Below are positions 18,396-48,485 of a stretch of 64,000 nucleotides of DNA, one piece after another (positions within the stretch are counted from its first letter, which is position 1; every line of letters starts with the position of its first letter). The notes under the pieces are model-generated. The model was not told the DNA's origin, did not search any database, and saw nothing but the letters and a program-made list of their open reading frames with translations. Both the position numbers and the translations under genes were made by a program. Source of the DNA: a virus (lineage: Duplodnaviria; Heunggongvirae; Uroviricota; Caudoviricetes); the IMG/VR virus record IMGVR_UViG_3300028048_001599, one strand, 5' to 3'.

Positions 18396-18657
18396 CTTTT
18401 TGATTTAATTAAAACCTTTTTATATTTTTATTAAGTCTTGTACGATTTTTCGTATTATTTCCGAAAATTTCAGAAGTTGTAAAAATTAGTAAAAATACAA
18501 GGACTAAAATTTGGGTACTTTTAAGGATTATGAATAGTAAAAATGTAGGACTTATTTCGACATTATTGTTATAATAAAATTCAAGAAATTTTCGTAATTG
18601 CAAAAGTCGGAATAGGGTATTGTGAAAATTTAACACATTTTGCAAGATAAAAAATTA

Positions 18658-18686
18658 TTGACATTTTCTGATAAATGTGTTATAAT
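18658..18686 (+). promoter_or_regulatory. Consensus sigma-A (sigma70-type) promoter
   Basis: TTGACA, a 17-nt spacer, then TGTTATAAT (extended -10). It lies in the 360-bp AT-rich intergenic region upstream of 18756. Confidence 0.7.
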
Positions 18687-18755
18687 TATTTAGTAAATTA
18701 ACCCTCACGGGTTTAATTTAATATACATTTTAATTATGAAAGGACGTAGTTAATT

Positions 18756-20945
18756 ATGGCTAAGAAACATAAGAAACTTCAAACTATTACTGCTTGTATT
18801 CTTTCGGCAATGCTTGTATCGAGTATGTCTGCAATGACTGCATTTGCGGCAGAAGACGATGCTGAAGGTATTACTGACTGGGACGATGGTGCAGTCGATG
18901 CTGGTACAGATGATACCGCATGGGGTGACGATGATAATACTTATGACAATGGTACTACTGAAGACTTTGTAGACACAGATACAGATTCGGAAGGAACGGA
19001 TGAAGATTTCGGTGGTGACGGTTGGGAAGACCCAGTATATGACGGTGGAACAGATGGAGGTTTTGGCGACGAAGATTGGGAAGACCCAACATATGACGAT
19101 GGAACAGATGATTCTCAGGAAGATGTAGACTGGGGTACAGGCACTGGCGAAGTCGAAGGTGGTCTTGAAGAAGGTGACCTTGGAGAAGGCGATTTCGACA
19201 CAGACGGGGGTGACGAAGACGCTCCTATTGACTGGGACTTAGGCGACGATGATGACGAAGACGCCCCTATTGACTGGGACTTAGGTGACGATGATGACGG
19301 TACTGAAGAAACACCTGATTGGGACTTAGGTGACGATGATGACGGTACTGAAGAAACACCTGATTGGGACTTAGGCGAAGGTGAAGACGGTGGAGAAGAT
19401 ACACCTATTGACTGGGACTTAGACGAAGATGATATTGACAAAACACTTGACTGCGACGGTGATGACGGTAATGAAGAAACACCTGTAGATGATACACCCA
19501 CTGACGACAATCCAGTAGACGACCCTGTAGATGATACACCTACTGACGACAATCCAGTAGACGACCCTGTAGATGATACACCTACTGACGACAATCCAGT
19601 AGACGACCCTGTAGATGATACACCTACTGACGACAATCCAGTAGACAACCCAGTAGACGACCCTGTAGATGATACACCTACAGACGGGGGTGAGGGTGAA
19701 AGTGGTGAAGAAACACCTGTAGACGATCCTACTGATGATAACCCTGTAGACGATACACCTACTGATGGTGGTGAGGGTGAAGATGGCGAAGAAACACCTG
19801 TAGACGATCCTACTGATGATAACCCTGTAGACGATACACCTACTGACGACACACCTACTGATGATAACCCTGTAGATGATACACCTACTGATGATAACCC
19901 GGTAGATGACACACCTACTGATGATAACCCTGTAGATGATAACCCTGTAGATGACACACCTACTGATGATAACCCGGTAGATGACAACCCGGTAGATGAC
20001 ACACCTACTGATGATAACCCGGTAGATGACAACCCGGTAGATGACACACCTGTAGACGATAATCCCACTGACGGTGGCGAAGACGAGAAGCCTGTTGACG
20101 GTGGTGACGATGAGACACCTGTAGAGGGTGATGATACACCTACTGATGATACACCTATCGACGGGGGTGAAGACACACCTGCTGATGATACACCTGTTGA
20201 CGGTGGTGACGATGAGACACCTGTAGAGGGTGATGATACACCTACTGATGATACACCTACTGATGATACACCTACTGATGATACACCTACTGATGATACA
20301 CCCGTTGACGGTGGTGATAGCGAGACACCTGTAGAGGGTGATGACACTCCCACGGACGACAATCCGACAGACGGTGAAGACACACCTGCTGATGATACAC
20401 CCGTAGATGGTGATGAAACACCTACTGACGGTGGTGACGATGAAACACCTGTAGAGAGTGATGACACACCTACTGACAGTGGTGAAGACACACCTTCCGA
20501 TGAAACACCTGACGATGGTGATGCTAAAACACCTGTTGACGGTTCTGAAGACGGCGAAGGTGAGGATAAAACTCCTTCCGATGAAACACCTGCCGATGAA
20601 ACACCTATAGATGGTGCTGGTTCTGAAGATGGTTCTGAAGATGGTTCTGAGGACGGTTCTGAAGACGGTTCTGAATACGGTTCTGAAGACGGTTCTGAAG
20701 ACGGTGATTCCGATAGCGAATACGTTGACGCAGTAGCTCCTATTTCTGATAACACGAATACACCTTCCAGTGGTTCTTATACTGGTGACAGTGATTACAC
20801 ACCTTCCTACTCTTACACAGATGGTGGTTCTGTAGACACTGTTAAGACTGGTGATACAATGCCGATTATGGCAATGGTTGGGGTAGCAATTGCTTCAGCA
20901 CTTGCTGGTATTGCAGCTTTCTTTAAGAGAAAGAGAGAAGACTAA
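18756..20945 (+). CDS. Secreted, extremely acidic repeat protein with a candidate sortase sorting signal. It is a putative cell-wall-anchored surface protein.
   Basis: Signal peptide MAKKHKKLQTITACILSAMLVSSMSAMTAFA. About 600 aa are D/E/T/P repeats (PVDDTPTDDN and similar). The C-terminus is VKTG-DT, then 22 hydrophobic residues, then KRKRED. This is the tripartite cell-wall sorting signal architecture, with KTG resembling sortase B motifs (NPKTG/SPKTG). Confidence 0.75.
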   Translation: MAKKHKKLQTITACILSAMLVSSMSAMTAFAAEDDAEGITDWDDGAVDAGTDDTAWGDDDNTYDNGTTEDFVDTDTDSEGTDEDFGGDGWEDPVYDGGTDGGFGDEDWEDPTYDDGTDDSQEDVDWGTGTGEVEGGLEEGDLGEGDFDTDGGDEDAPIDWDLGDDDDEDAPIDWDLGDDDDGTEETPDWDLGDDDDGTEETPDWDLGEGEDGGEDTPIDWDLDEDDIDKTLDCDGDDGNEETPVDDTPTDDNPVDDPVDDTPTDDNPVDDPVDDTPTDDNPVDDPVDDTPTDDNPVDNPVDDPVDDTPTDGGEGESGEETPVDDPTDDNPVDDTPTDGGEGEDGEETPVDDPTDDNPVDDTPTDDTPTDDNPVDDTPTDDNPVDDTPTDDNPVDDNPVDDTPTDDNPVDDNPVDDTPTDDNPVDDNPVDDTPVDDNPTDGGEDEKPVDGGDDETPVEGDDTPTDDTPIDGGEDTPADDTPVDGGDDETPVEGDDTPTDDTPTDDTPTDDTPTDDTPVDGGDSETPVEGDDTPTDDNPTDGEDTPADDTPVDGDETPTDGGDDETPVESDDTPTDSGEDTPSDETPDDGDAKTPVDGSEDGEGEDKTPSDETPADETPIDGAGSEDGSEDGSEDGSEDGSEYGSEDGSEDGDSDSEYVDAVAPISDNTNTPSSGSYTGDSDYTPSYSYTDGGSVDTVKTGDTMPIMAMVGVAIASALAGIAAFFKRKRED
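19200..20720 (+). repeat. Composite array of imperfect tandem repeats (30-45-bp units, plus a 12-bp gatggttctgaa unit at about 20618..20703)
   Basis: Visible periodic repetition encoding DAPIDWDLGDDDD, PVDDTPTDDNPVDDP, TPTDD and SEDG units. Confidence 0.85.
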
Positions 20946-27545: not shown

Positions 27546-27968
27546 ATGAAAAAATATCTATTAATGACACTGGTTGTATTAGCTATGGTGGGTACTTCTG
27601 CCTGTAATAATGGTAACGATAAACAAAAGCAGCAAACATTAGCTGATGATAGTTCCGCAAGTCAGGCATCTATTTCACATGTTGAATCTGTAGTAGCTTC
27701 AAAGGTTGATGAAAGTAAACCTGACTTATTTGAACGTGAGGAACAAAGTTTAGAGCCTGTTACATCGGATAATATTATAGACAGCACGACACTTCCGGGC
27801 TCAACAAGTTCAGAAACTGAGGAATCATTGAATGGTGGCGAGACATCTGAGCAAGTGTCTGAACAGGTATCAAGGCAGACATCAGGTGATGTTTCAGGTC
27901 AGGAATCGACAACATCAGGTGAAACTGAACAGGAATCAAGTTCACATGACATAGGTGGCTTGTCATAA
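27546..27968 (+). CDS. Lipoprotein (lipobox TSAC) with an acidic S/T/E-rich mature region
   Basis: RBS AGGAGGGT. Signal peptide plus lipobox VGTSAC. Confidence 0.6.
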   Translation: MKKYLLMTLVVLAMVGTSACNNGNDKQKQQTLADDSSASQASISHVESVVASKVDESKPDLFEREEQSLEPVTSDNIIDSTTLPGSTSSETEESLNGGETSEQVSEQVSRQTSGDVSGQESTTSGETEQESSSHDIGGLS

Positions 27969-28641: not shown

Positions 28642-29607
28642 ATGAAATTAAAAAGACTTTTAGCGGTTCTCCTTGCATCGGTTGTATTTGTCGTACCGAT
28701 GTCAGCTTGTAATAATTCTTGTTGCAAAGATGGTGAATGTCAGTGTAGTTGTTGTAATCAGAACAAGGAAAGTTCTGTTGAATCTTCGGATGAATCTGAA
28801 TCACTTCCTGATGAAAATACCAACTCTGAATCGTATTCAGAACCATCAGACGAAGTAAAGGCAACAAAGGTTTATAAATACTTTGATAAAGTAAACACGG
28901 ATAAGGATACAAAAGTTACAGTCACATCTGATAATACCACATATAAGTATTTTGTAAGTGACGGCGAGATGGTTCAGTATGTTAACGTAACGGGTGATAA
29001 CCCTCAGGAGGGGGTACAATATAGTAAGGGTGATAAAGCTTATATTGTTGATATTACAAATAAGCAATACCGGACTTACGATTTGACGAATGACGAGAAG
29101 GCAATGAAATCTACGTACCTCTCAAATATCGTAAAAACAATGTTTACAAGTATAGAATTTGTGGATGAAAAAGACGGATACGAGGTATTTAAGTTTATAA
29201 CAACAGATTCAGAGGAGAAGAACGGGGTAGACTCAACTGAGAAATCAGTTGTTGATGATATTGAACCATCAAAGAAGTCAACATCGAGTGGTGCTACCGC
29301 GAGTTCCGCAAGTACTGACAGTTCTGAGGTTTCTGATGATGCTTCTGAAATAGTAACTCCAGAATATCTTTACATGAAAGTTGAAAAAGACGGAGTACTT
29401 GTAGAATCACGTGATTCTAAAGGCGAGATTTTGGACTCATCAAAATACTCAGTTTCAAAGGTAACAGAAAGTGATAAAAAAGTTTGTTCAATAGAGGGGT
29501 GTAAGGAAATAAAGGGTGAAGATGTTTCAAATCTTCCTAACGTTCCTGATGTTTCTGAGGATACTTCAAAAGTTGAATCAGCTGTTGAGTCTAATAGCTC
29601 AAATTAA
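28642..29607 (+). CDS. Lipoprotein, paralog family member 1
   Basis: Lipobox MSAC. It shares the KDGxxY...KTY.IxD and EKDGYEVFKF...DKK motifs with 35114..35890 and 38730..39623. Confidence 0.65.
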   Translation: MKLKRLLAVLLASVVFVVPMSACNNSCCKDGECQCSCCNQNKESSVESSDESESLPDENTNSESYSEPSDEVKATKVYKYFDKVNTDKDTKVTVTSDNTTYKYFVSDGEMVQYVNVTGDNPQEGVQYSKGDKAYIVDITNKQYRTYDLTNDEKAMKSTYLSNIVKTMFTSIEFVDEKDGYEVFKFITTDSEEKNGVDSTEKSVVDDIEPSKKSTSSGATASSASTDSSEVSDDASEIVTPEYLYMKVEKDGVLVESRDSKGEILDSSKYSVSKVTESDKKVCSIEGCKEIKGEDVSNLPNVPDVSEDTSKVESAVESNSSN

Positions 29608-29771
29608 TAAAGTGTAGCAAGTATGTGTTAGTATACTAATATTGTATATAATACTTGGTGCATTAATAGCAATATTAGCATACATATACTCATTATATTA
29701 CTTTGTATCGATGTTGTTATTGATGCTGTCAGTTTTTGAGAAAGATAACCAACAAAGAGAGAAGGAACACA

Positions 29772-30245
29772 ATGAAGAGTATACGTGCAATTTTGAAGCA
29801 GAATGACAAACATGAAATAAAACTGAATTTTAGTGTGGATAATAGGTACAAATCAGCTATTGTAACGTCTATAATAAAAGCTATATCAATTATAATTTTA
29901 GGTATTATTGCACAGGTAAACGTTGGAGGCTCAGCTGGTTTATTTACGTTGTTTTCAACGATAGGAATAGGGGTAGTAATGATAGCACTAGGGATTCGGG
30001 TGTCTACAACAAAAGAGTTGTTAGATGTGCTTAGGTTAATCTTGATATATTTTATAACGGGGGTATTATACATTATATGTTTTGTATTAATTATTACGTT
30101 AGATATGTTTAAGGTTACGAGTGATTTTAAGTGGTTATCTTTAGTATCAGTAATAAATGTGGTAGTTAATTTCTGTTGTTATTATGTTTCATTGTTTGCA
30201 TTGGATATGCATTTACAGTATTCAAATAATTCAGATAAATTTTAA
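29772..30245 (+). CDS. Integral membrane protein (about 4 TM helices)
   Basis: ATG after AGAGAAGGAACACA. Hydrophobic helices are visible. Confidence 0.55.
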   Translation: MKSIRAILKQNDKHEIKLNFSVDNRYKSAIVTSIIKAISIIILGIIAQVNVGGSAGLFTLFSTIGIGVVMIALGIRVSTTKELLDVLRLILIYFITGVLYIICFVLIITLDMFKVTSDFKWLSLVSVINVVVNFCCYYVSLFALDMHLQYSNNSDKF

Positions 30246-30332
30246 ACCACAAGGTAGCACGACAGTGTTACCTTGTTCAATTTGTACTTTAATGTTGACC
30301 TTTTTGGTTTAAGGTCAAGGGGGACTTGAAGA

Positions 30333-31169
30333 ATGAAAAAGAATATATTAATTTTACTTGTAGCATGTTTGGTTTTGTTATGTTCAGGTTGTACTAATTG
30401 GGTTCATGCAGAGAGTGAGGATGACGTTTCTACAGCTTCAGAGGCAAGTATGTTAGAAAAAGCAACTGCATCCACTGATAATAAGGCTCAACTTAAAGAG
30501 GAAAACAGTAAACAAGAAGTTATCACGTTGACTACGGAATTTAAGTCAAAAATTAAAAAATTATATGAAAAAGACTCAGATATGACTATAACATGTAAGA
30601 TAAAGAATCATTACGGTGAGTGTTCTTTTTCTTGGGATTACATTGTAAGAAAACATTCTGATTATGCATATCGTGTATATATTGAGAATATTAAATGTAC
30701 AAGTTGTAATTTTAAATCTATAACTTCTGAGGATGTTACTAACTACATGAATAGAGTATTAAGTTGTACCACCTTAGAGGGAATAAGAGGGGTAGATGAA
30801 TGTGCTTATGATTTGTATATTTTTAATGCACGTGTGCGGGAAAAAATAGACGCATCAGATTTTCAGAGACTTGTATTTGATAAATTAAATGACAACGATG
30901 AAATAATATATGATTCGTATGATGGTGAATGTTTACGTGCATCACATGAGGCATTAGGTTGTATAGCTTCAAAAATAACAGACATATATGGTGGGGACAT
31001 TACTTCGGTATTATCAGCTGATATAAATTTCGATGCTAAACAATCAGATAAAACTCAGCATTTCATAAGGGGTAATTACACATATGATGTTTCCTTGAGT
31101 AAAGACGAACTCAAATTAAATTCAGTAGTAAATGACGTAAAAACCGAAATGACAATCAAGATTAAATAA
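30333..31169 (+). CDS. Lipoprotein (lipobox CSGC)
   Basis: RBS AGGGGGA. Signal peptide MKKNILILLVACLVLLCSGC. Confidence 0.6.
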   Translation: MKKNILILLVACLVLLCSGCTNWVHAESEDDVSTASEASMLEKATASTDNKAQLKEENSKQEVITLTTEFKSKIKKLYEKDSDMTITCKIKNHYGECSFSWDYIVRKHSDYAYRVYIENIKCTSCNFKSITSEDVTNYMNRVLSCTTLEGIRGVDECAYDLYIFNARVREKIDASDFQRLVFDKLNDNDEIIYDSYDGECLRASHEALGCIASKITDIYGGDITSVLSADINFDAKQSDKTQHFIRGNYTYDVSLSKDELKLNSVVNDVKTEMTIKIK

Positions 31170-31220
31170 GGTAAGCACACTTATGTGTTTATAATAAATT
31201 ATGAAAAATGAGGTATGAAC

Positions 31221-32792
31221 ATGGAAATCGAGTTTATTCCAATCATTATTGGAGTGGTTGTAGTCATAGCATTAATTATATTTATGTGTATGATTTATCG
31301 TGTTGCAGACATCGACAAGGCACTAATTGTAACAGGCGGTAAGAAACCAATAGTCAAGGTATCAGGGGGTAGTTTTGTAATTCCGATATTCCGAAAAGCT
31401 CAGTACTTTGACCTTTGTATGCTTACTGTTACTGCTGACAGGGATGAGGTAAAGACAGTAACAGCGGTACCAATTATCATTGACTGGACAGCACAGATTA
31501 GACCTGATACATCTGATGTAGAAGGTAAACTTATGAAAGCTATTGTATCATTTAAAGAGAGGGGTAAAGACGGCATTGTAAATGACGTAAGACTTACACT
31601 GACTGGTGCAGTACGTGATATAGTTGCTTCAATGACACCTGAAGAGGTACTGAAGGATAAACAGACATTTACTGAAAAAGTAATACATATCGTGTCTGAT
31701 GAAATGGCAAAAATGGGTATGGAACTTGTTTCATTAAACATTCAGGACATAACTGATAAAAATGGTTACTATGATAACATGGCAGCACCTGATATGCAAG
31801 CCAAAAGGCAAGAGGCTGAAGTCACAAAGGCGAAAGTTGACCAAGCTATCAGAGAGCAGAAGGCAGAGTCTGAGAAGAAGGCACAACAGGCAGAACTTAC
31901 ATCACAGTTGGAAGTAGCTGAAAAGAAAAAGGATAACGACCTAAAACTTGCAGACTTCAAAACACAGACAGACGTAGCTAACGCTAACGCTGAGATTGCT
32001 GGTGAACTTCAAAAGACAAAAAGACAGCAAGAGATAGCCGTAGAACAAGGTCGTATTAAAGTTGTAGAACAGGAACAGGCTAACCTTGCCGCTCAGAAAG
32101 AAAAAGAGGTAATTGCCACAAAAGCGGAAGCAAACAAGCAGAAAAAGATGATTGACGCTGAGGGTGACGCAAACGTAAAGAGAATAGCAGCCGAGATGGG
32201 GGTAGAAGTTGCAAAACAGGATGCCGAGGCTGTAAGAACCACTGCTAAGGCTCAGGCTGATAGAGTAACTGCTGAAGGTAACGCTGAAGCAGAGGTTGTA
32301 AGACAAAAAGGTATTGCAGCTGCGGACGTTCAGAAAGCACAGGGTACTGCTGAGGCTGACGTTGATAGAGCAAAGCGTATGGCAGAGGCAGATGGTACAA
32401 AAGCACAGCTTATAGCACAAGCTGAAGGTGAACAGGCACTTGCTGATGCTCGTGCTTCACACGATAAAGTCAATTTTGAACTTGCGAAGGTTGAAATTGA
32501 GAATCGTACAAAAGTTGAGATTGCAACTAATGTAGCTACAATAATGGCAGAGGTTGGAAAGAACGCTCAGTTCGTAAATATTGGCGGTTCAGTAGGTAAT
32601 GGTTCAACAGGAAATGTACTTCTCGACACCCTGAGAGGTATACCGGAACTTATGAAGGTTCTTGACGTTGAAAATCAGGCACTTAACGGAAAGCCGTTCA
32701 ATGAAGAGGTTGAAGGACTTGTAAAGAGTGTAGCAGGACCTGTAAAGGGTATTTTGTCAAGTAACACACCTGAGGCTACTGATAAGAAATAA
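31221..32792 (+). CDS. Flotillin / SPFH (band 7) domain protein
   Basis: N-terminal TM helix, then LIVTGGKKP...SPFH core, then a long Ala/Glu/Lys/Gln-rich coiled-coil region typical of flotillins (FloT-like). The start is probably ATG 31221 (9 nt from GAGGTA). Confidence 0.8.
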   Translation: MEIEFIPIIIGVVVVIALIIFMCMIYRVADIDKALIVTGGKKPIVKVSGGSFVIPIFRKAQYFDLCMLTVTADRDEVKTVTAVPIIIDWTAQIRPDTSDVEGKLMKAIVSFKERGKDGIVNDVRLTLTGAVRDIVASMTPEEVLKDKQTFTEKVIHIVSDEMAKMGMELVSLNIQDITDKNGYYDNMAAPDMQAKRQEAEVTKAKVDQAIREQKAESEKKAQQAELTSQLEVAEKKKDNDLKLADFKTQTDVANANAEIAGELQKTKRQQEIAVEQGRIKVVEQEQANLAAQKEKEVIATKAEANKQKKMIDAEGDANVKRIAAEMGVEVAKQDAEAVRTTAKAQADRVTAEGNAEAEVVRQKGIAAADVQKAQGTAEADVDRAKRMAEADGTKAQLIAQAEGEQALADARASHDKVNFELAKVEIENRTKVEIATNVATIMAEVGKNAQFVNIGGSVGNGSTGNVLLDTLRGIPELMKVLDVENQALNGKPFNEEVEGLVKSVAGPVKGILSSNTPEATDKK

Positions 32793-32810
32793 TTACATAA
32801 TATAACATTA

Positions 32811-32882
32811 ATACACGTATCATATAATAAATACATAATAATTTGTTATGGCATTTATTGCTGATACGTGTATATTTTTATG
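32811..32882 (+). terminator. Long-range inverted repeat plus T-tract (possible terminator)
   Basis: atacacgtatca ... tgatacgtgtat (12 bp perfect, about 40-nt loop) followed by ATTTTTATG. Confidence 0.35.
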
Positions 32883-33080
32883 CTTAGTGAACATTTATTT
32901 ATTATGAAATAGTAATGGTTTTGCATATCTTGATGACGTTATAAAAGACGTCTATAAATACATTCATTGATTTATTCTGTCGAAATTTGTAGAAGATTAG
33001 AGTAATTTGTTGTACATTAGAAAGTTGATAAGAAATCATTAGTTAGTTTTTATATTCAGTTAGAGGATGGGTGTAATACT

Positions 33081-33476
33081 ATGATTATTGGTTATAGAAC
33101 ACAAAATTCAAGTTTTAACTCAATAGTAGTACCCTTTAAAGATGTACTTGAGTTTGAAACAAAGGAGTTAGGAAATGTAGATATTTACCTAACAATGCGT
33201 GAACGTTATGGTTTGAAAATAGACCTACGTTGGAAAAAAGACAAATGTAACGCTATAATACTTGAATATTTTAAAAAGAAATACAAAGGGGTAGTTCCAC
33301 TTTGTGTTTGGCTTTGTGACTCACCTTATTCTGTTAAACAACTTTACTCACACGGTAATGAACCAATAATAAAGGTAATATTACCTGATAGTACCATTAT
33401 TGCATCAGATTTGGGATATGACGGTAGGTTATATGTGATACATTCAGGTCAAACTTACTCTTGGGAATATGTATAA
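33081..33476 (+). CDS. Hypothetical protein
   Basis: ORF followed by an imperfect hairpin at 33489..33520. Confidence 0.5.
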   Translation: MIIGYRTQNSSFNSIVVPFKDVLEFETKELGNVDIYLTMRERYGLKIDLRWKKDKCNAIILEYFKKKYKGVVPLCVWLCDSPYSVKQLYSHGNEPIIKVILPDSTIIASDLGYDGRLYVIHSGQTYSWEYV

Positions 33477-33621
33477 GATTTATAATTATTACCTGTTGGT
33501 TAAGTATTACCGACAGGTAAAAATTAATAACATATTTCCATTATTAATAAATAAGTGATAGTGTCTGAGTGGATTGAAGGGGAGTTTAAGGACACAAACT
33601 AATAGAAAAGGGGTAATACAT

Positions 33622-34611
33622 ATGAGAAGTGTTAAAAAACGCATTTTGAGTGTTGCTTTATCATTGACTATGGTCTTAGGTGTTTCAATTTTACCTGCTT
33701 CAATTTCTGTTGATGCCGCTAACTTGAATAGTTTAAGTAATGGTTATAAGAAGAATGGTAACATTGAATCTAAATATTATAGACAGTTAAAGAACACGGT
33801 AAATGATATCAACGCAAATAATAAGACAAATTCGACAATTTATATGAACGCTACAGCACGTATCGCAGAATCCCAAGTGGGGTATTCTTGTTATGCAACA
33901 TTCGGTGATTCAAGTGCTGTTCGTTGGAATGGTATATCTGCACGTATGAATGGCTATTACACGGGGAATACTGAATATACACGTTGGTTCTTCACTGATG
34001 TAATTAAAGATGCTAAAAACAGGTCTAATAGATATGCAGACCTCGATTGGTGTGCAATATTTGCATCGTGGTGTATGTATCATTCGGGGTATCATGCTAA
34101 TACCTCTGATAAATATATAGTATACTCATCGTGTGCCGATCCACGTAAGGATTTAGCAAAGGGTGAACGTTGGACTGCATTTAATGGTGCAGAGAGCAAA
34201 TGTTGGTATACAAAGACTGGTACCATTGCACTTAATGAGCAATCTTGGGTTTATCATGCATGGTCGGGGTTCAACGGTTATAAAGATTTCAAGACTTGGA
34301 ATAAAAATGTTACATCCAATCATAGAAATCGTAGTGCACTGTATAAATACACAAGCAACGGAAAGACAGTAAATGCAAATGGTATACCTTATAAGCGTGG
34401 TGGTTTGGTATTTTTCGACTGGGAACAGGACGGTAAATTTAACCATGTTGCTATTGTGAAGAAGGTTAGTGGTAATACATTAACAATCATAGAAGGTAAC
34501 GCAAGAGCAGGTGGAATAGGGGGTACACATTCGGGAAATTCTAGTGTACGCATAACCACTGTAAACTTGAAAACTCAAGGCAAATTTATTGCCGCATATA
34601 TGGAATATTAA
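33622..34611 (+). CDS. Secreted CHAP-domain peptidoglycan hydrolase (putative endolysin or virion lysin)
   Basis: ATG after AAAGGGGTAATACAT. Signal peptide MRSVKKRILSVALSLTMVLGVSILPASISVDA. CHAP signature Cys (LDWCAIFASWCMYH) and His (FNHVAIVKKVSGNTLTIIEGNA). Confidence 0.7.
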   Translation: MRSVKKRILSVALSLTMVLGVSILPASISVDAANLNSLSNGYKKNGNIESKYYRQLKNTVNDINANNKTNSTIYMNATARIAESQVGYSCYATFGDSSAVRWNGISARMNGYYTGNTEYTRWFFTDVIKDAKNRSNRYADLDWCAIFASWCMYHSGYHANTSDKYIVYSSCADPRKDLAKGERWTAFNGAESKCWYTKTGTIALNEQSWVYHAWSGFNGYKDFKTWNKNVTSNHRNRSALYKYTSNGKTVNANGIPYKRGGLVFFDWEQDGKFNHVAIVKKVSGNTLTIIEGNARAGGIGGTHSGNSSVRITTVNLKTQGKFIAAYMEY

Positions 34612-34625
34612 TATAACCTAACATA

Positions 34626-34665
34626 ATATGTCTATACTTCGGTATAGGCATATTTTTTATTTTAT
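34626..34665 (+). terminator. Rho-independent terminator
   Basis: atatgtctatac-ttcg-gtataggcatat followed by TTTTTTATTTT. Confidence 0.6.
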
Positions 34666-34799
34666 TTTTAATGTAAATTTGAGACATTTATTAATACTTT
34701 TATCTATAATAAATAAGTTTAAAAAGCGGAAAAATCATAGGAAAGGGGCAAAACTATGATACTTACTACTATCTTACAAAATAATAAGGAATGATAGTT

Positions 34800-35099
34800 A
34801 TGAAATTAAGAATAAAGCCTATTTCGGTTGATTTAAAATGTAAGAAGACCATTGAACAGGCAGCAAGACAACTGGGTATTTTACCATATTTTACAAAATA
34901 TAATGGTAGATATATAGCAATTCTTACTAACAGGAAAATAAATATAGATGACACAATTGTAGTCAAGGAGGAACATGCCTCAAGTGGAGATGTAGTTTTA
35001 TTAAATGGGGTATCGACTGTATGGGGAAATTTTTTGTTTAAGAAATTGCAGTTTAATGAATTAATGACGAAAAACTTTATTACATATGCAGAGGTTTAA
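34800..35099 (+). CDS. Hypothetical protein
   Basis: ATG after AAGGAATGA. Confidence 0.4.
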   Translation: MKLRIKPISVDLKCKKTIEQAARQLGILPYFTKYNGRYIAILTNRKINIDDTIVVKEEHASSGDVVLLNGVSTVWGNFLFKKLQFNELMTKNFITYAEV

Positions 35100-35113
35100 T
35101 AGGGGGAGCAAAA

Positions 35114-35890
35114 ATGAAAATTTCGAGGGTATTAGCGGTTAGCATGTGTTGTGTTATATGTTCAGCACTTGTAGGTTGTGATAATAAAAGTAATAATGAG
35201 GTTTCAGAATCCGCTGAATTAAGTATAGTAGTAAGTACTGAGACCTCAAATGATAGTAGTGATACTTCAAAAAATCCTATGCAACATGAATCATCAAATG
35301 ATGCAGAAAGTTCATTAACAAAACCTACTGTATCTAACGATTCTAATTATATCTCTATTAATGACTTAGATAAAACAAAGTCTTACGGATATTATAAAAA
35401 TTTCAAATCAATGGGTTCAGCGACATTGTCTGGTGAAATTGTAGAAATACTAAACGATTCAGAAAATGTATCGACTTTTAAGATGTGTAAGGACGGTAAG
35501 AAAATATACATCGAAATGTTTTCGGGGGATTTTGGTTTAGCCGAATACTTTGATGGAAAGCAATATTACACATTAAATAAAACTGACAAAACCTACAGTG
35601 TAATTGATGGTTTATCCTATAATTTTGACGGTGAAATAAACGGTTTATTTACTGGTATGGCAAGTGTAGTAGAAAAAGATGGTATAGAAATATTTACATT
35701 ATCGGATGTGCAATACGCAGCGAATGGTGATGTTGAATTATTAGCTGAAACAACAGATGATGGTGTAACATTAAGTATTCGCAAAGCAGGGGGTACTGAA
35801 ATTAAGCGAAAAATTCGTTTTAGAATAAGTACACTTTCAGAAGATGATAAACAAAATTTCGGTATCAATGGTTATAAGAAGGTTGAGTAG
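35114..35890 (+). CDS. Lipoprotein, paralog family member 2
   Basis: Lipobox LVGC. C-terminal EKDGIEIFTLSD...FRISTLSEDDKQNFGINGYKKV parallels 38730 FKLSKVSDNDKKLFDISGYNEI. Confidence 0.65.
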   Translation: MKISRVLAVSMCCVICSALVGCDNKSNNEVSESAELSIVVSTETSNDSSDTSKNPMQHESSNDAESSLTKPTVSNDSNYISINDLDKTKSYGYYKNFKSMGSATLSGEIVEILNDSENVSTFKMCKDGKKIYIEMFSGDFGLAEYFDGKQYYTLNKTDKTYSVIDGLSYNFDGEINGLFTGMASVVEKDGIEIFTLSDVQYAANGDVELLAETTDDGVTLSIRKAGGTEIKRKIRFRISTLSEDDKQNFGINGYKKVE

Positions 35891-35901
35891 TGAGGTTACA
35901 T

Positions 35902-36120
35902 ATGAAAAGATTATCTAAGAGAAATTCAAGAAACAATAAGATGTTTGTTTCAATACTGTTATGTATTTCGATAGTTCTTATAGCTTTAATGGTAACAATA
36001 ATAGTTATATCAATGCCTATGTTATCATTTCAAGAAACCTGTTTTGCATTTGGTATTTTATTTATAGCAATGTTAGCATGGTGGTTATTTTATAGGAGAA
36101 TCCGGAAGAAATTAAAATAA
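35902..36120 (+). CDS. Small two-TM membrane protein (holin-like candidate)
   Basis: ATG after GTGAGGT. It has two hydrophobic helices and a basic C-terminus. Confidence 0.45.
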   Translation: MKRLSKRNSRNNKMFVSILLCISIVLIALMVTIIVISMPMLSFQETCFAFGILFIAMLAWWLFYRRIRKKLK

Positions 36121-36131
36121 GAGGTGACAGT

Positions 36132-36413
36132 ATGATAGAAATAACGGTAGATAATGCAAGACAGGGTTGCTACGATGGTAATTACCTACGTGGTATGTTT
36201 CCTGTGATAGCATTCACAAAATACAGGGGTAACTTTATAGCAATACCAGGTGTAACTTTGAATAAGAATGAAAAAATCATTATTCATGATGTCCCTGATA
36301 CGAGCAAATGGGGGTTTTGGACAAGAAGTAAACTACCAATAGAAATAACATACTCTTCTGTTTCAGAAAAACAATTAGGTTCAAAGGATTTTGTATTATT
36401 TACAGTAGTATAA
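36132..36413 (+). CDS. Hypothetical protein
   Basis: ORF with RBS AGAGGTGA. Confidence 0.5.
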   Translation: MIEITVDNARQGCYDGNYLRGMFPVIAFTKYRGNFIAIPGVTLNKNEKIIIHDVPDTSKWGFWTRSKLPIEITYSSVSEKQLGSKDFVLFTVV

Positions 36414-36427
36414 TGTGAGGTGTTTGG

Positions 36428-36991
36428 ATGAATACATATTTTATTTCAGATTTACATTTTGGTCACGCTAACGTCATTAAGTATGACAATAGACCTTTCG
36501 TAAATATAGAACAAAACGATTCGGTGTTAATAGACAATTGGAATAGTCGTGTTACAGATAAAGATGAAGTGTACATTCTTGGTGACTTTAGTTGGTATAA
36601 TGCAGCAAAGACACTTGAAATTTTCAGTAAACTCAAGGGAAAAAAGTATCTAATTCGAGGTAATCATGACAGCAAGTTATTGAAAAACTCAAAAATTAGA
36701 GGTCTGTTTGAAGAAATTGTAGACTATAAGGAAATCAAACTAACAAAGGATTTTGGTTTGGTGTTATCACATTATCCCATCCCTTGTTTCAATCATCACA
36801 TTCAGGGCTGGGTTCATTTGTATGGGCATGTTCATAACACACTTGAATGGAATGTAATGTTACTAACAAAGGAAACATTAGAGAGAACATTCAACGCACC
36901 GTGTCGTATGTATAACATCGGTTGTATGATGGATTATATGGGATATACTCCAAGGACATTGGAAGAAATATTGAGTACTTGTGAAAATTAA
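36428..36991 (+). CDS. Calcineurin-like metallophosphoesterase
   Basis: The N-terminal ISDLHFGH, GDFS and GNHD motifs are the conserved phosphoesterase metal-binding blocks. Confidence 0.75.
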   Translation: MNTYFISDLHFGHANVIKYDNRPFVNIEQNDSVLIDNWNSRVTDKDEVYILGDFSWYNAAKTLEIFSKLKGKKYLIRGNHDSKLLKNSKIRGLFEEIVDYKEIKLTKDFGLVLSHYPIPCFNHHIQGWVHLYGHVHNTLEWNVMLLTKETLERTFNAPCRMYNIGCMMDYMGYTPRTLEEILSTCEN

Positions 36992-37006
36992 TTAGGGGGA
37001 ATTTAA

Positions 37007-38353
37007 GTGGCACTTACAGATGAATATGAAGTGGATGAAAGAGAGGATGAAACCTTAGACGATGAATATGACGATGCTTTTGATGGTGCTGAAAAACTGC
37101 AACATGAGCTACTGTCAATAAAATCAGAGGTAACATTAAAAGAACAGGACATTGAAATAGATGATATTCTAACATCTGATTTCAAAAAGGTATCTCGTGG
37201 TAAAACAATAACAGGTCTTTCAAATCTAATAGCCGACTGGGGTATCGTAACACCAATCCATGTTTTAAAACTTGAGGATGATGATACATACTTACTACTT
37301 GATGGTTTACGTAGAATATATGCAGCACTTCGTAAAGGTGAATCTAAAGTCAGGGCGATAATTTGGGAGTTCAGTGATATTGATGAGGGTAAAGATATTG
37401 CTCCTATTGTTTCTTTAATGGTAAATAGGTCACAACCTTATGCTAATAAGGAACAGTGGAATATAATGCAATTATTACTTGAACGTTCAACATCACCTGG
37501 ACTTATAGAGTTCCTACTTCAACTTCCTGCTGGTGACGCTATGCGATTACAAGATATAATGACAGCAGACGTTGATGGTTTTCAGGAGTTTCGTGATAAA
37601 TTTCTTGCTGACGAGCTAAATATTGATGCAGCATATAAGAAACTGCAGAAATGTAGAAAAGACGAGGACAAACTTGAAAAGGAAGACCGTACTATCATAA
37701 CTGATTCAGAAGACGGTGGTAAAGATACAGCACAGGGTGACGAGAGAAGACTACTTGAACAGGATGAAGTTCTCGACCTTCTGGATATGTCATCTGATGG
37801 TGATGTCGATGACATGGATGTTGAGGATTTGGACATGACATCAGAGGTCAACAAAGCCAAAGTTCAAGATAAAGACGATAGACATCCTGTAGACCCACTT
37901 ATAAAACAAGAAACATTCCGTAGAGATAACTTCACTTGTCAGTGCTGTGGTCTTAACGGTGAAGCAAATATAGCTGTATTGATATTCCATCATATAGTGG
38001 GGGTAGCTTGTGGAGGACCCGACTCAGTTGACAACGGTTTAACATTGTGTCAAAATTGCCACATGCTTCTTCATTTATATGTATTCGGTAAAGTCCATAT
38101 CCACTGGAACGAACTTGATGAGGCACAGACGAAAAAATTTAAGCGTATCTGTAAATACGGTAATGTGCAAATCAAAGCTTGGAAAAAAGTGGGGGTATCT
38201 AAAGAGGAAGCTTATAAAAAGGACGCAGACTCTCGTAGACACTTATACCCTGGTGAGGGACTTGACGTAATCAATCAGGCATATGATAGAGCAAAAAGGG
38301 ACGGAACTTTTGATAATACATCAAAGGAACAAGAAAATACAGATGAGGGTTGA
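37007..38353 (+). CDS. ParB/Srx-like N-terminal domain fused to an HNH endonuclease
   Basis: LLDGLRRIYAALRKG (ParB GxRRxxA box). C-terminal CQCCG...HHIV...NGLTLCQNCHMLLH (HNH). Acidic linker. GTG start after AGGGGGA. Confidence 0.75.
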   Translation: MALTDEYEVDEREDETLDDEYDDAFDGAEKLQHELLSIKSEVTLKEQDIEIDDILTSDFKKVSRGKTITGLSNLIADWGIVTPIHVLKLEDDDTYLLLDGLRRIYAALRKGESKVRAIIWEFSDIDEGKDIAPIVSLMVNRSQPYANKEQWNIMQLLLERSTSPGLIEFLLQLPAGDAMRLQDIMTADVDGFQEFRDKFLADELNIDAAYKKLQKCRKDEDKLEKEDRTIITDSEDGGKDTAQGDERRLLEQDEVLDLLDMSSDGDVDDMDVEDLDMTSEVNKAKVQDKDDRHPVDPLIKQETFRRDNFTCQCCGLNGEANIAVLIFHHIVGVACGGPDSVDNGLTLCQNCHMLLHLYVFGKVHIHWNELDEAQTKKFKRICKYGNVQIKAWKKVGVSKEEAYKKDADSRRHLYPGEGLDVINQAYDRAKRDGTFDNTSKEQENTDEG

Positions 38354-38358
38354 TATTT

Positions 38359-38718
38359 ATGAATAGTAAAGTTGTAAAGCAGTTCACAGTTTCGGTACTA
38401 GAGGTAATGGATACTGTTCACGTTTATGAGAAGTTCAAATTATCCTTTAATGGGAACCTTGATAGATTCATGAAAGACAGTAATGGTATTGATATACTCG
38501 AGGTTCGTAAATTTGGTTCAAGATTGTTATTCATTGTTGTGGAGAAGAAATCAGGTGTCACTCCGGATTCAGCATATAGATACTTATTTGAGCGTTTTGG
38601 TGCAATTTTTGATGTGAATAGTAATATTCCGGCATGTATTGTTAGAATAAGTGGTACTAAAACTCAAAGTTATAAACTCTTTATAGATGACGAGATATGT
38701 GAGAAATCAAGTATCTAG
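38359..38718 (+). CDS. Hypothetical protein
   Basis: ATG after GAGGGTTGA. Confidence 0.5.
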   Translation: MNSKVVKQFTVSVLEVMDTVHVYEKFKLSFNGNLDRFMKDSNGIDILEVRKFGSRLLFIVVEKKSGVTPDSAYRYLFERFGAIFDVNSNIPACIVRISGTKTQSYKLFIDDEICEKSSI

Positions 38719-38729
38719 GGGGTGATAAA

Positions 38730-39623
38730 ATGAACAAGAAACTCATAATTGGGGTAATTACATTAGCAATTGTAGGTTCAAGTGTGGTTTGTATGTCAGC
38801 ATGTTCAAAGGAATCCAATGACACCCAAAGTTCAGTTACATCAAGTAAAATTGAAAAAGACGTGTCAAAGGATACTTCAAATGACACTTCCAATGACACT
38901 TCAAATGACACCTCAAATGACACCTCAAAGGTTGAAAAAAGTTCCTCAAAAAGTGGTGAAAACACCGTAGATGTTGATGAACCATCGTCAGTGGTATCAA
39001 AATCAAGTGAACCAATTGAGCACCTAATAGCTGCGGAAGCATCTGAGGAATCTTCAGAGTCATCTGAGAGAAAGATTAGTTCTGAGGTTAGAAATTCAAA
39101 CTTTGGCAAATTTATGTTAAACATAGGCAAAAGAATAGCAAGCGGAGCTACACTTAATGTTTCACGTGATATAAATTCAATAAAACTTGTTACTGTTGAT
39201 GACTCTATAGCTTTGGTTATTAAAGACACAAATGATGAAATAACATATTATAATGTTGTAAAGGACGGTAAATCTTTCGTTATTGACCCTAAGAATAAAA
39301 CTTATGTTATATCAGATGATTCATCACGTGCTAAGGATTTAGTAAGCACGTCAAATGATGAAATTAATAGTGGCTTAGATTACTTAAAACTTGATAAAGT
39401 CGAGGATGGCTATGAGTACTTTTCATTTGATGCTGAAGCATCATCACAAGGGGTAAATGATATTTTAATAGTCAAAGCTACCGAAGATGAATGTACGATT
39501 TATGCAAATACTCTTGACTCAACACCATATATGACATTCAAACTGTCGAAAGTATCAGACAATGATAAAAAGTTATTTGATATATCAGGTTATAATGAAA
39601 TAGACGCAGCGTCAGTAAACTAA
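38730..39623 (+). CDS. Lipoprotein, paralog family member 3
   Basis: Lipobox MSAC. DTSN repeats (12-bp tandem at about 38871..38930). Shared C-terminal domain as described above. Confidence 0.65.
   Translation: MNKKLIIGVITLAIVGSSVVCMSACSKESNDTQSSVTSSKIEKDVSKDTSNDTSNDTSNDTSNDTSKVEKSSSKSGENTVDVDEPSSVVSKSSEPIEHLIAAEASEESSESSERKISSEVRNSNFGKFMLNIGKRIASGATLNVSRDINSIKLVTVDDSIALVIKDTNDEITYYNVVKDGKSFVIDPKNKTYVISDDSSRAKDLVSTSNDEINSGLDYLKLDKVEDGYEYFSFDAEASSQGVNDILIVKATEDECTIYANTLDSTPYMTFKLSKVSDNDKKLFDISGYNEIDAASVN
38871..38930 (+). repeat. 12-bp tandem repeat (gacacttcaaat-like, about 5 copies) encoding DTSN repeats
   Basis: Visible tandem copies. Confidence 0.8.
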
Positions 39624-39630
39624 TATATAG

Positions 39631-39668
39631 TAAGTGATGGTTTTCCATCACTTATTTTTATATTTTTA
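39631..39668 (+). terminator. Rho-independent terminator
   Basis: aagtgatgg-tttt-ccatcactt followed by ATTTTTATATTTTT. Confidence 0.7.
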
Positions 39669-39678
39669 AGACTTCCTA

Positions 39679-39707
39679 TTGACATTTTAGGAATAATATG
39701 TTATAAT
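39679..39707 (+). promoter_or_regulatory. Consensus sigma-A promoter
   Basis: TTGACA, a 17-nt spacer, then TGTTATAAT. Confidence 0.7.
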
Positions 39708-48468: not shown

Positions 48469-48485
48469 GTTAGGGGTTGAACATT

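What the first reader, a model, noticed from the sequence alone, without database searches (positions are those of the whole stretch)
28642..39623. Family of three diverged paralogous lipoproteins, plus two further lipoproteins, scattered through the region
The ORFs at 28642..29607, 35114..35890 and 38730..39623 all begin with a lipobox (MSAC, LVGC, MSAC). After a variable acidic S/T-rich linker they share a domain with the motifs KDGK..Y / KTY.I.D and DGYEvFkF / KvS.nDKklFdIsGY.EI. They are clearly paralogous but strongly diverged, with different tandem-repeat linkers. Two more lipoproteins (27546..27968 and 30333..31169) lie between them. Phage lipoproteins are classical superinfection-exclusion or injection-blocking factors (Llp, Ltp, Sie). 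A diversified paralog family suggests an arms-race module, or several host-envelope targets.
Basis: seen in the sequence. Interest (0 to 1): 0.55.

Follow-up and report, generated by a model that had tools for sequence, protein, structure and literature searches.

The report
Phage lipoproteins with LolA-like fold
Three genes in this large uncultivated phage are true but very old duplicates encoding membrane-anchored surface proteins whose shared domain is predicted to adopt the lipid-binding "LolA" fold; this family has no database entry and its function is untested.

Summary
ORFs A (28642..29607), B (35114..35890) and C (38730..39623) each have a signal peptide with lipobox, an acidic Ser/Thr-rich disordered linker, and a shared ~170-residue C-terminal domain.

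- **Paralogy:** pairwise BLASTP is weak (E 2e-5 to 2e-3). A full HMMER search of 1.84 billion proteins found 16 family clusters. Profile-profile comparison of the three resulting subfamilies is decisive (hhalign 96.5-97.8%, E 1e-9 to 1e-12, full length).
- **No sequence-level match:** nothing in Pfam, PHROGs, NCBIfam, PDB sequences or BFVD.
- **Distribution:** the family appears confined to one clade of large phages. The host is probably Gram-positive, because the phage carries a sortase and a likely sortase substrate. Family members sit in a variable lipoprotein island downstream of the NAD ligase.
- **Evolution:** A, B and E diverge much faster than neighbouring genes (31-43% versus 62-92% identity). 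Gene-wide dN/dS is 0.2-0.4, so positive selection is not shown.
- **Function:** superinfection exclusion is plausible by architecture (Ltp-like anchor and spacer) but untested, and the fold differs from Ltp.
only C has a tandem repeat, and lipoprotein D lies upstream of A, not between the paralogs.

The parts
27546..27968 (+). Lipoprotein D, 140 aa. Signal peptide with lipobox TSAC (Cys20, nt 27594..27605), followed only by an acidic Ser/Thr-rich low-complexity tail. No evidence of a globular domain.
   Evidence: ORF and sequence. Lipobox pattern. Mature part has net charge -19 and 31% S+T. AGGAGG Shine-Dalgarno. Ortholog 98% identical in L008 and 42% in L004. Not a member of the A/B/C family: E 0.07-0.7.
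28642..29607 (+). Paralog A, 321 aa.
- Residues 1-23: signal peptide with lipobox MSAC (nt 28699..28710).
- Residues 24-72: Cys-rich then acidic linker.
- Residues 73-~188: LolA-like domain, helix, strands 1-6, lid helix, strands 7-8 (starts at nt 28858).
- Residues ~189-241: disordered acidic insertion (nt ~29206..29364).
- Residues 242-295: strands 9-11 and the DKK..I.GC motif (to nt 29526).
- Residues 296-321: acidic tail.
29736..30245 (+). Hydrophobic protein, predicted multi-pass membrane protein (169 aa from TTG; a likelier start is ATG 29772). It lies between A and E, and this position is conserved in related phages.
   Evidence: Hydrophobic translation. Syntenic orthologs in L002, L004, L005 and L008. 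No family match.
30333..31169 (+). Lipoprotein E, 278 aa. Lipobox CSGC (Cys20, nt 30381..30392), an acidic linker, and a ~215-residue domain with 8 cysteines that is unrelated to A/B/C.
   Evidence: Ortholog lipobox MSGC in L002. Only 4 close homologs among 5.8 billion proteins. Family HMM E 0.02, not significant. The E 1e-5 hit used a profile that still contained signal-peptide and linker columns.
31215..32792 (+). SPFH/Band-7 (flotillin-like) membrane protein, 525 aa, with an N-terminal transmembrane segment. Part of the envelope cluster, but mobile between related phages.
   Evidence: Pfam Band_7 E 2e-19. Absent at this position in L008 and found at a different position in L004.
33574..34611 (+). 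Secreted CHAP-domain peptidoglycan hydrolase. The start is probably ATG 33622. Followed by a terminator-like hairpin at 34625..34654.
   Evidence: Pfam CHAP E 1.9e-6 and PHROG endolysin E 3.8e-10. N-terminal hydrophobic signal-like segment. Terminator scan.
35114..35890 (+). Paralog B, 258 aa.
- Residues 1-22: signal peptide with lipobox LVGC (nt 35168..35179).
- Residues 23-77: acidic Ser/Thr linker.
- Residues 78-258: LolA-like domain (nt 35345..35887).
35890..36120 (+). Small protein (76 aa) with predicted transmembrane segments, immediately downstream of B (stop and start overlap). Co-varies with B between strains.
   Evidence: Identity to L007 is 81% and to L002 is 37%, tracking B.
38730..39623 (+). 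Paralog C, 297 aa.
- Residues 1-25: signal peptide with lipobox MSAC (nt 38793..38804).
- Residues 26-116: acidic linker containing the (SNDT)n tandem repeat (nt 38865..38929).
- Residues 117-297: LolA-like domain (nt 39078..39620).
   Evidence: Repeat copy number differs between strains. L007 has a premature stop (TCA to TAA) in the linker.
39629..39656 (+). Intrinsic-terminator-like hairpin directly after C. It is followed by a perfect sigma-70-type promoter (TTGACA-17-TATAAT with TG) at 39679..39707, so C ends a transcription unit.
   Evidence: The hairpin is conserved in L002 and L007.

Best explanation
A, B and C are three ancient paralogs of a small family found only in one clade of large phages. 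They are membrane-tethered, extracytoplasmic proteins.

**Shown (computationally)**
- Each has a type-II signal peptide with lipobox. Two distant family members have an N-terminal transmembrane anchor instead.
- Each has a 50-90-residue acidic Ser/Thr-rich disordered stalk.
- Each has a ~170-residue domain predicted to be a LolA/LolB-type beta-clam: N-terminal helix, strands 1-6, a lid helix, strands 7-11, a short helix.
- The A subtype carries a second disordered acidic loop between strands 8 and 9.
- The three subtypes predate the divergence of the related phages.
- They lie in a conserved but variable lipoprotein island downstream of the NAD-dependent DNA ligase.
- They are under purifying selection, yet diverge far faster than their neighbours.

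**Inferred**
- In an infected cell (probably a Gram-positive Bacillota host) the proteins are lipidated. They are then displayed on the outer face of the cytoplasmic membrane, with the stalk letting the domain reach into or through the wall.
- As in other LolA-superfamily proteins, the concave sheet closed by the lid binds a hydrophobic partner. Candidates are acyl chains of a glycolipid or lipoteichoic-acid anchor, a lipoprotein, or a segment of a membrane protein.
- Three diverged copies would then give three ligand or target specificities.
- The biological outcome is an envelope-level change useful to the phage. The most likely one is blocking or occupying an envelope component needed by incoming phages. 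Stabilising or remodelling the envelope during a long infection is the alternative.
For: **Genes and signals**
- The genes are real: ORFs, Shine-Dalgarno motifs, orthologs, dN/dS 0.2-0.4.
- Lipoboxes are conserved in 14 of 16 family clusters; the other two have transmembrane anchors.

**Paralogy**
- hhalign 96.5-97.8%, E 1e-9 to 1e-12, over 140-173 columns.

**Fold**
- Two AlphaFold models show the same element order.
- The superfamily is defined by an 11-stranded sheet made of strands 1-6 and 7-11 with a lid between strands 6 and 7. Its members bind hydrophobic ligands (PMC6363788). The models match this topology.

**Host envelope type**
- A phage sortase (Pfam E 2e-11).
- A secreted protein with a sorting-signal-like C-terminus.
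- The nearest sortase homologs are in Bacilli-type gut MAGs.

**Island and synteny**
-.

**Fast divergence relative to neighbours**
-.

**Architectural analogy**
- Ltp has a lipid anchor, a Ser-rich spacer and an active domain (PMC3952083).
Against: - There is no sequence-level link to any LolA-clan Pfam family; the best is DUF2092 at E 0.06 in 1 of 19 members.
- Model B is only medium confidence.
- The two models share parts of one alignment, so they are not independent.
- I could not inspect coordinates, so the hydrophobic pocket is assumed.
- Lipidation, surface display, host identity and timing of expression are all inferred.
- Not all LolA-fold proteins bind lipids: VioE is an enzyme and RseB binds a protein.
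- C carries a nonsense mutation in one strain, so at least that copy is dispensable.
- No phenotype data exist.
Confidence: 0.6

Rival explanations
1. Classical superinfection-exclusion or injection-blocking lipoproteins. The displayed domains would bind the tail tip or tape-measure protein of incoming phages, or mask the receptor, as Ltp (TP-J34) and Llp (T5) do. The three paralogs would cover different competitors. This overlaps with the biological outcome proposed in the best explanation; the difference is that here the binding partner is a phage protein, not a host envelope lipid or component.
For: - Same three-part architecture as Ltp: lipid anchor, Ser-rich acidic spacer, active domain.
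- The domains are acidic overall (net -7 to -11 in B and C). In Ltp, negative charge is used to bind the tape-measure protein.
- Much faster divergence than neighbours, and variable island content.
- Loss of C in one strain, as expected for an accessory gene.
Against: - No match to Pfam, PHROG or NCBIfam families annotated as superinfection-exclusion.
- The fold is an all-beta LolA-like clam, not the Ltp repeat domain.
- dN/dS is below 1 gene-wide.
- No lysogeny genes were seen in the window, so this would have to be exclusion by a lytic phage, as with T5 Llp.
- Nothing here tests exclusion.
Confidence: 0.25
2. Mimics of regulatory sensors. Like RseB/MucB, which use the LolA fold to bind an anti-sigma factor and sense lipids, the phage lipoproteins would bind the extracellular part of host anti-sigma factors or envelope-stress sensors. 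That would silence or trigger envelope-stress responses during infection.
For: - RseB binds RseA, and lipids modulate MucA-MucB binding.
- Membrane tethering would place the domain next to such sensors.
Against: - RseB/MucB have a second C-terminal domain that is absent here.
- The similarity is no better than to LolA, LolB or LprG.
- No host partner is known.
- Purely inferential.
Confidence: 0.1
3. The similarity among A, B and C is a composition artefact: shared signal peptides and low-complexity acidic linkers. The 'domain' motifs would then be chance.
For: - Pairwise BLASTP E-values are weak (2e-5 to 2e-3). The A/B alignment includes the signal peptide and linker.
- Profiles from close orthologs alone gave A-B E ~1.
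Against: - Domain-only subfamily profiles, with signal peptides and N-terminal linkers removed, align full length at E 1e-9 to 1e-12.
- Sixteen independent clusters share the same motifs and architecture.
- The predicted secondary-structure order is identical in A and B.
Confidence: 0.02
4. The region is a bacterial chromosomal or plasmid island, not phage. The lipoproteins would then be ordinary cellular LolA-like lipoproteins of a Firmicute.
For: - No capsid, terminase or tail gene was identified inside the 64-kb window.
- No match in GenBank phages, IMG/VR or BFVD.
Against: - All ~80 genes lie on one strand with 93% coding density, which is typical of large phages.
- The replication and nucleotide-metabolism genes present are a set commonly found in phage genomes: family A polymerase hitting phrog_17, NAD ligase, ParB-HNH, a resolvase, a methyltransferase.
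- The polymerase's best matches are phage records.
- No relative of C in 185,579 representative genomes.
- No tRNA and no housekeeping genes.
- The same protein lies on a 324-kb contig.
Confidence: 0.05

Closest known systems
LolA/LolB fold superfamily (CATH 2.50.20; LolA, LolB, RseB/MucB, LprG/LppX/LprF, DUF4292, TTHA1012, ependymin)
   Same: - Predicted 11-stranded antiparallel sheet split 6 + 5, with a helical lid between strands 6 and 7 and an N-terminal helix.
- Extracytoplasmic location.
- Several members (LolB, LprG, LppX) are themselves lipoproteins.
   Different: - No detectable sequence similarity to any Pfam family of the clan or to PDB sequences.
- Encoded by a phage.
- Tethered by a long acidic stalk.
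- The A subtype has a 20-110-residue disordered acidic loop inserted in the sheet.
- The strongly conserved C-terminal motif S-K-V-[ST]-x-x-D-K-K-x-F-x-I-x-G-Y was not seen, to my knowledge, in the cellular families (not tested here).
- Ligand unknown.
Ltp of Streptococcus thermophilus phage TP-J34 (superinfection-exclusion lipoprotein)
   Same: - Phage-encoded.
- Gram-positive host.
- Lipid anchor, then Ser-rich spacer, then surface-exposed acidic active domain.
   Different: - Ltp's active part is a tandem repeat domain that binds the tape-measure protein. Here there is a single LolA-like beta-clam.
- No hit to any Pfam family, including any Ltp model Pfam holds.
- Ltp is a prophage lysogeny-module gene. 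These genes sit in a large, apparently lytic-type genome.
- No phenotype is known here.
Llp of coliphage T5 (receptor-blocking lipoprotein of a lytic phage)
   Same: A lytic-phage lipoprotein acting at the envelope (from general knowledge; not tested here).
   Different: - From my own knowledge, Llp is a very small outer-membrane lipoprotein that binds FhuA in a Gram-negative host.
- No sequence or fold relation.
- No annotated PHROG match.
Mycobacterial LprG/LppX lipid-carrier lipoproteins
   Same: - Lipoproteins of bacteria that lack the Lol pathway, built on a LolA-like clam that binds triacylated glycolipids and other lipids.
   Different: - Cellular, not viral.
- No acidic stalk.
- Sequence unrelated. 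The Pfam scan found no significant family of any kind.

Membership tests
Bacterial lipoproteins (Lgt/Lsp substrates) | N-terminal basic n-region, hydrophobic h-region, and lipobox [LVI][ASTVI][GAS]C with the Cys at about position 17-25. | tested here: met
   A MSAC (Cys23), B LVGC (Cys22), C MSAC (Cys25) and D TSAC (Cys20) match a G+LPP-type pattern. E CSGC (Cys20) has an atypical -3 residue, but its ortholog has MSGC. Lipoboxes are present in 14 of 16 family clusters.
Bacterial lipoproteins (Lgt/Lsp substrates) | Actual diacylglyceryl modification and signal peptidase II cleavage. | not testable with these tools
   Needs expression with globomycin treatment or lgt/lsp mutants, or mass spectrometry.
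LolA/LolB fold superfamily | 11-stranded antiparallel beta-sheet (strands 1-6 and 7-11) with a lid between strands 6 and 7 packing on the concave face. | tested here: met
LolA/LolB fold superfamily | Apolar ligand-binding cavity and binding of a hydrophobic ligand. | not testable with these tools
   Model coordinates could not be inspected, and there is no ligand assay.
Pfam families of the LolA clan (LolA, LolB, DUF2092, DUF4367, DUF4292, MucB_RseB, LppX_LprAFG) | Score above the family gathering threshold. | tested here: not met
   No significant hit for A, B, C or any of the 19 family members. The best was DUF2092 at E 0.06 in one member. The PDB sequence profile search was also negative.
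Ltp-type superinfection-exclusion lipoproteins | Lipid anchor plus Ser-rich spacer. | tested here: met
   Ltp architecture from PMC3952083.
Ltp-type superinfection-exclusion lipoproteins | Ltp repeat domain (the part that binds the tape-measure protein). | tested here: not met
   No Pfam or PHROG hit of that kind. The predicted domain is a single beta-clam.
Ltp-type superinfection-exclusion lipoproteins | Blocks DNA injection of superinfecting phage. | not testable with these tools
   Needs plating and DNA-entry assays in a host that is not yet identified.
Spanins (Rz/Rz1-like lysis lipoproteins) | Outer-membrane lipoprotein component paired with an inner-membrane partner, in a Gram-negative lysis cassette. 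| tested here: not met
   Only E gave weak PHROG Rz-like hits (E 0.046-0.15), and these cover the signal-peptide region. The sortase and sorting-signal protein point to a Gram-positive host.

The most novel reading that the evidence does not exclude
A clade of large phages of Gram-positive gut bacteria has evolved its own sequence-orphan branch of the LolA lipid-carrier fold and keeps three specialised copies on the infected cell surface. These would capture or shuttle host envelope lipids, such as the glycolipid anchors of lipoteichoic acid or lipoprotein acyl chains, across the wall. That would be a viral lipid-handling system with no described counterpart, and could represent a new mechanism of receptor masking or envelope takeover.
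Probability: 0.2. Interest if true: 0.75.

Novelty: new variant of a known kind. Interest (0 to 1): 0.5.

Why it matters
If the fold prediction and surface display are right, this is, as far as my searches show, the first phage-specific family of LolA-type proteins. They occur in a phage of a probably Gram-positive host, where the Lol pathway itself does not exist.

It gives a concrete structural hypothesis, a hydrophobic-ligand clam on an acidic stalk, for a set of otherwise orphan genes. It also defines a variable lipoprotein island as a conserved feature of this phage clade.

It offers testable candidates for how large phages manipulate or protect the host envelope. The immediate value is a new family definition: 16 clusters, three subtypes and diagnostic motifs. 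This can be used to annotate metagenomic phages.

Tried and rejected
- **Close-ortholog profiles:** these gave only marginal cross-hits between paralogs, so I could not conclude until the family was enlarged.
- **Family libraries:** Pfam, PHROGs and NCBIfam scans of A-E found nothing significant. The weak hits (SdiA-regulated, Mucin, PG1828 lipoprotein, Rz-like spanin) fall on signal peptides or low-complexity regions.
- **PDB sequence profile search:** nothing.
- **Foldseek against viral BFVD structures:** nothing at E <= 0.001.
- **afdb50 library:** unavailable.
- **Megablast against GenBank phages:** no match. The polymerase has hits of 30% identity or less.
- **The search for related loci with the family alignment:** With protein C, no relatives were found in IMG/VR or GTDB representative genomes.
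- **Word-indexed search with the 19-sequence alignment:** returned fewer hits than the full HMMER search.
- **E as a fourth family member:** rejected. The E 1e-5 hit came from a profile that still included signal-peptide and linker columns. The domain-only profile gives E 0.02.
- **D as a family member:** rejected, since it has no domain.
not meaningful at ~20-25% identity because synonymous sites are saturated. I computed ortholog dN/dS instead and found no gene-wide positive selection.
- **P0021:** a repeat protein and a spurious hit, so it was excluded.
- **The - strand ORF 38681..39229 (182 aa):** it overlaps the C linker and is treated as a low-complexity artefact, since all convincing genes are on the + strand.

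Full report
**1. Observation**

- A = 28642..29607 (321 aa)
- B = 35114..35890 (258 aa)
- C = 38730..39623 (297 aa)
- D = 27546..27968 (140 aa)
- E = 30333..31169 (278 aa)

Each has a purine-rich Shine-Dalgarno motif 6-10 nt before its ATG. Each begins with a basic n-region, a hydrophobic stretch and a lipobox: A MSAC, B LVGC, C MSAC, D TSAC, E CSGC. The E ortholog in a related phage has the canonical MSGC.

A pattern scan of all ~80 + strand genes shows these are the only lipobox proteins in the 64-kb window, and all lie within 27.5-39.6 kb. The segments after the lipid-modified Cys are acidic and Ser/Thr-rich, with net charge -8 to -11 and 27-37% S+T.

- Only C has a DNA tandem repeat (12 nt x 5.4 at 38865..38929, encoding SNDT repeats). 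Its copy number differs between strains.
- D lies upstream of A, not between the paralogs.

**2. Are A, B and C paralogs?**

The initial evidence was weak.
- Pairwise BLASTP gave A/B 4e-4, A/C 2e-3 (C-terminal 35 residues only) and B/C 2e-5.
- A word-indexed search of 5.8 billion proteins with the three domains returned only close orthologs of each.
- Profiles built from those orthologs still gave marginal cross-hits.

A full HMMER search of 1.84 billion cluster representatives with a domain-only profile found 17 proteins, one of them a spurious repeat protein. The 16 real clusters all share the same architecture and motifs: NK(T/Q)Y, DGYE.F, and a C-terminal SK(V/I)(S/T)xxDKKxFxIxGY. They fall into three subtypes.
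- A-type: has a low-complexity insertion inside the domain.
- B-type.
- C-type.

Domain-only profiles of the three subtypes align to each other over their full length. hhalign gives A-B 97.8% probability (E 1e-12, 173 columns), A-C 97.3% (2e-11) and B-C 96.5% (9e-10). Each subtype HMM ranks the other two window paralogs as its best non-self hits among 273 window ORFs.

Paralogy is therefore established. E (E 0.02) and D are not members.

**3. Fold**

AlphaFold2 on the B domain with a 12-sequence alignment gave a medium-confidence model (pLDDT 69). The A domain with the 19-sequence family alignment gave pLDDT 82 and pTM 0.72. Most of its ordered residues score above 90, and the internal acidic insertion is disordered.

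Both models have the same order of elements: an N-terminal helix, six strands, a helix, five strands, a short helix.

The superfamily is defined by an 11-stranded antiparallel sheet formed by strands 1-6 and 7-11. A lid connects strands 6 and 7 and covers a hydrophobic pocket. Members bind hydrophobic ligands despite very low sequence similarity (PMC6363788). The models match that topology.

At sequence level there is no link.
- Pfam, NCBIfam and PHROGs give nothing significant. The best LolA-clan hit is DUF2092 at E 0.06 in one of 19 members.
- A profile search of PDB sequences is negative.
- BFVD viral structures give no match.

**4. Context**

The window looks like part of a large phage genome.
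- All genes are on one strand with ~93% coding density.
- It carries a family A DNA polymerase, NAD-dependent ligase, a ParB-HNH fusion, a Holliday junction resolvase and a DNA methyltransferase.
- There are no tRNAs.
- A protein identical to A lies on a 324-kb contig.
- There is no close relative in GenBank phages, IMG/VR or GTDB genomes.

The host is probably Gram-positive.
- The window encodes a sortase (48477..49460, Pfam E 2e-11).
- It also encodes a secreted 729-aa protein whose C-terminus (…VKTGD, a hydrophobic stretch, KRKRED) looks like a cell-wall sorting signal.
- The nearest sortase homologs (35-38% identity) are in Bacilli-type gut MAGs.

The lipoprotein genes are embedded in an envelope-directed cluster. 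It also contains:
- a predicted multi-pass membrane protein (29736..30245)
- an SPFH/Band-7 protein (31215..32792)
- a secreted CHAP hydrolase (33574..34611)
- a small protein with predicted transmembrane segments directly after B (35890..36120)

C is the last gene of a transcription unit. A terminator hairpin at 39629..39656 is followed by a perfect sigma-70-type promoter.

**5. Comparative genomics**

Related contigs keep the order ligase, (D), A, membrane protein, E, then B and C, with some rearrangements.
- B and the SPFH gene change position.
- SPFH is absent in L008.

More distant relatives also carry family members, plus unrelated lipoproteins, just downstream of the ligase (L009, L013). 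One contig has two adjacent family members (L012). The three subtypes therefore predate these phages' divergence, and the island is a conserved but variable feature.

Against the L002/L004 phage, identities are:

| Gene | Identity |
|---|---|
| A | 33% |
| E | 31% |
| B | 43% |
| D | 42% |
| Predicted multi-pass membrane protein | 46% |
| Ligase | 82% |
| ParB-HNH | 92% |
| CHAP | 67-68% |
| C | 89%, inside a highly conserved block |

Nei-Gojobori dN/dS for the lipoprotein genes is 0.2-0.4 in close comparisons, against 0.02-0.1 for the core replication genes. In the distant L002 comparison, where synonymous sites are near saturation, B reaches 0.42 and E 0.59. This means purifying selection that is relaxed or locally diversifying, not gene-wide positive selection.

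Among close relatives, differences concentrate in the signal peptide and linker, while the domain stays nearly identical. That pattern suggests mosaic exchange. In one strain (L007) C has a TCA to TAA nonsense change in the linker.

**6. Mechanism**

*Shown:* a family, apparently confined to one phage clade, of membrane-tethered proteins with an acidic stalk and a predicted LolA-type clam, in three ancient subtypes.

*Inferred:*
- The proteins are lipidated and displayed on the outer face of the host membrane.
- The clam binds a hydrophobic partner: glycolipid or lipoteichoic-acid anchor, lipoprotein acyl chains, or a membrane-protein segment.
- The three copies differ in specificity.

The outcome most consistent with the architecture and with precedent is interference with an envelope component used by incoming phages. 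The precedent is Ltp, which has a lipid anchor, a Ser-rich spacer and an acidic active domain (PMC3952083). The fold is unrelated to Ltp, so a lipid-handling or envelope-remodelling role, or RseB-like sensor mimicry, cannot be excluded.

**7. Novelty and verdict**

- The family has no entry in Pfam, PHROGs or NCBIfam, and no structural counterpart in BFVD.
- A full-text search found no paper describing phage LolA-like lipoproteins.
- It is best described as a new, sequence-orphan branch of a known fold superfamily in an unusual setting: phage, probably Gram-positive host, three paralogs.
The paralogy and lipoprotein interpretation is supported. The arms-race and exclusion interpretation remains a reasonable but untested hypothesis.
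- Interest is moderate: a solid new family with a concrete structural hypothesis, but no functional evidence.

Noticed in passing
window 48477..49460 and 18756..20945: The phage encodes a sortase (Pfam Sortase E 2e-11). It also encodes a secreted 729-aa proline-rich (extensin-like) protein whose C-terminus (…DTVKTGD, a hydrophobic stretch, KRKRED) resembles a cell-wall sorting signal. This may be a phage-borne sortase and substrate pair that decorates the host wall. The nearest sortase homologs (35-38% identity) are in Bacilli-type and 'Tenericutes' gut MAGs.
   Followed up: partly
window 28711..28770 (A residues 24-43); also P0011, P0013, P0002, P0006: Immediately after the lipid-modified Cys, some A-type proteins carry a dense Cys cluster (CNNSCCKDGECQCSCCNQNK in A, CNCDCDCSDCTC in P0013). 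It is kept between orthologs that are only 33-44% identical, but is absent from more distant A-type members. It resembles metallothionein and might be a metal-binding or multiply acylated membrane-proximal segment.
   Followed up: no
L007 4229..5098 (ortholog of window 38730..39623): The C ortholog in a closely related strain has a premature stop (TCA to TAA) in the linker. This splits the gene into a 78-aa signal-peptide/linker piece and a 169-aa ORF (210 aa if read from the first upstream start codon) that lacks a signal peptide. P0008 (136 aa) is another truncated C fragment.
   Followed up: partly
window 31215..32792: An SPFH/Band-7 (flotillin-like) membrane protein of 525 aa with a long Ala/Glu/Lys-rich coiled-coil-like tail. 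It is absent at this site in L008 and sits at a different place in L004, so it behaves as a mobile cassette within the envelope island.
   Followed up: partly
window 1868..8338: A 2156-aa secreted protein with BspA-type leucine-rich repeats (Pfam LRR_5 E 8e-44) and Ig-like domains. It could be a host-adhesion or receptor-binding protein.
   Followed up: no
window 37007..38353: A fusion of an N-terminal ParB-like domain with a C-terminal HNH endonuclease (448 aa). It is very conserved among related phages (92-99% identity, dN/dS 0.03-0.04), in contrast to the lipoprotein genes around it.
   Followed up: no
window 39629..39707: A conserved terminator hairpin is followed 23 nt later by a perfect TTGACA-17-TATAAT promoter with an extended -10 TG. 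This suggests that host sigma-70/sigma-A RNA polymerase transcribes the downstream genes.
   Followed up: no
L009 5836..7305; L013 9291..14642; L012 1631..3251: Related phages carry other, unrelated lipoprotein genes next to the LolA-like family member downstream of the NAD ligase. There are up to five consecutive lipobox ORFs in L013. L012 has two family members side by side. The island content is highly variable.
   Followed up: partly
window 34625..36120 versus L007: Between two otherwise 98-99% identical strains there is a local divergence block. It covers the 102-aa ORF (68% identity), the signal peptide and linker of B (about 65%), and the small membrane protein after B (81%). The B domain itself stays 96-98% identical. 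This suggests a recombination mosaic with a breakpoint inside B.
   Followed up: partly
window 33574..34611; L004 12969..13910 and 17845..18810: The secreted CHAP-domain hydrolase has two diverged paralogs in the related phage L004 (313 and 321 aa) but only one copy in this window region. Its true start is probably the internal ATG at 33622, which has a better ribosome-binding site.
   Followed up: no
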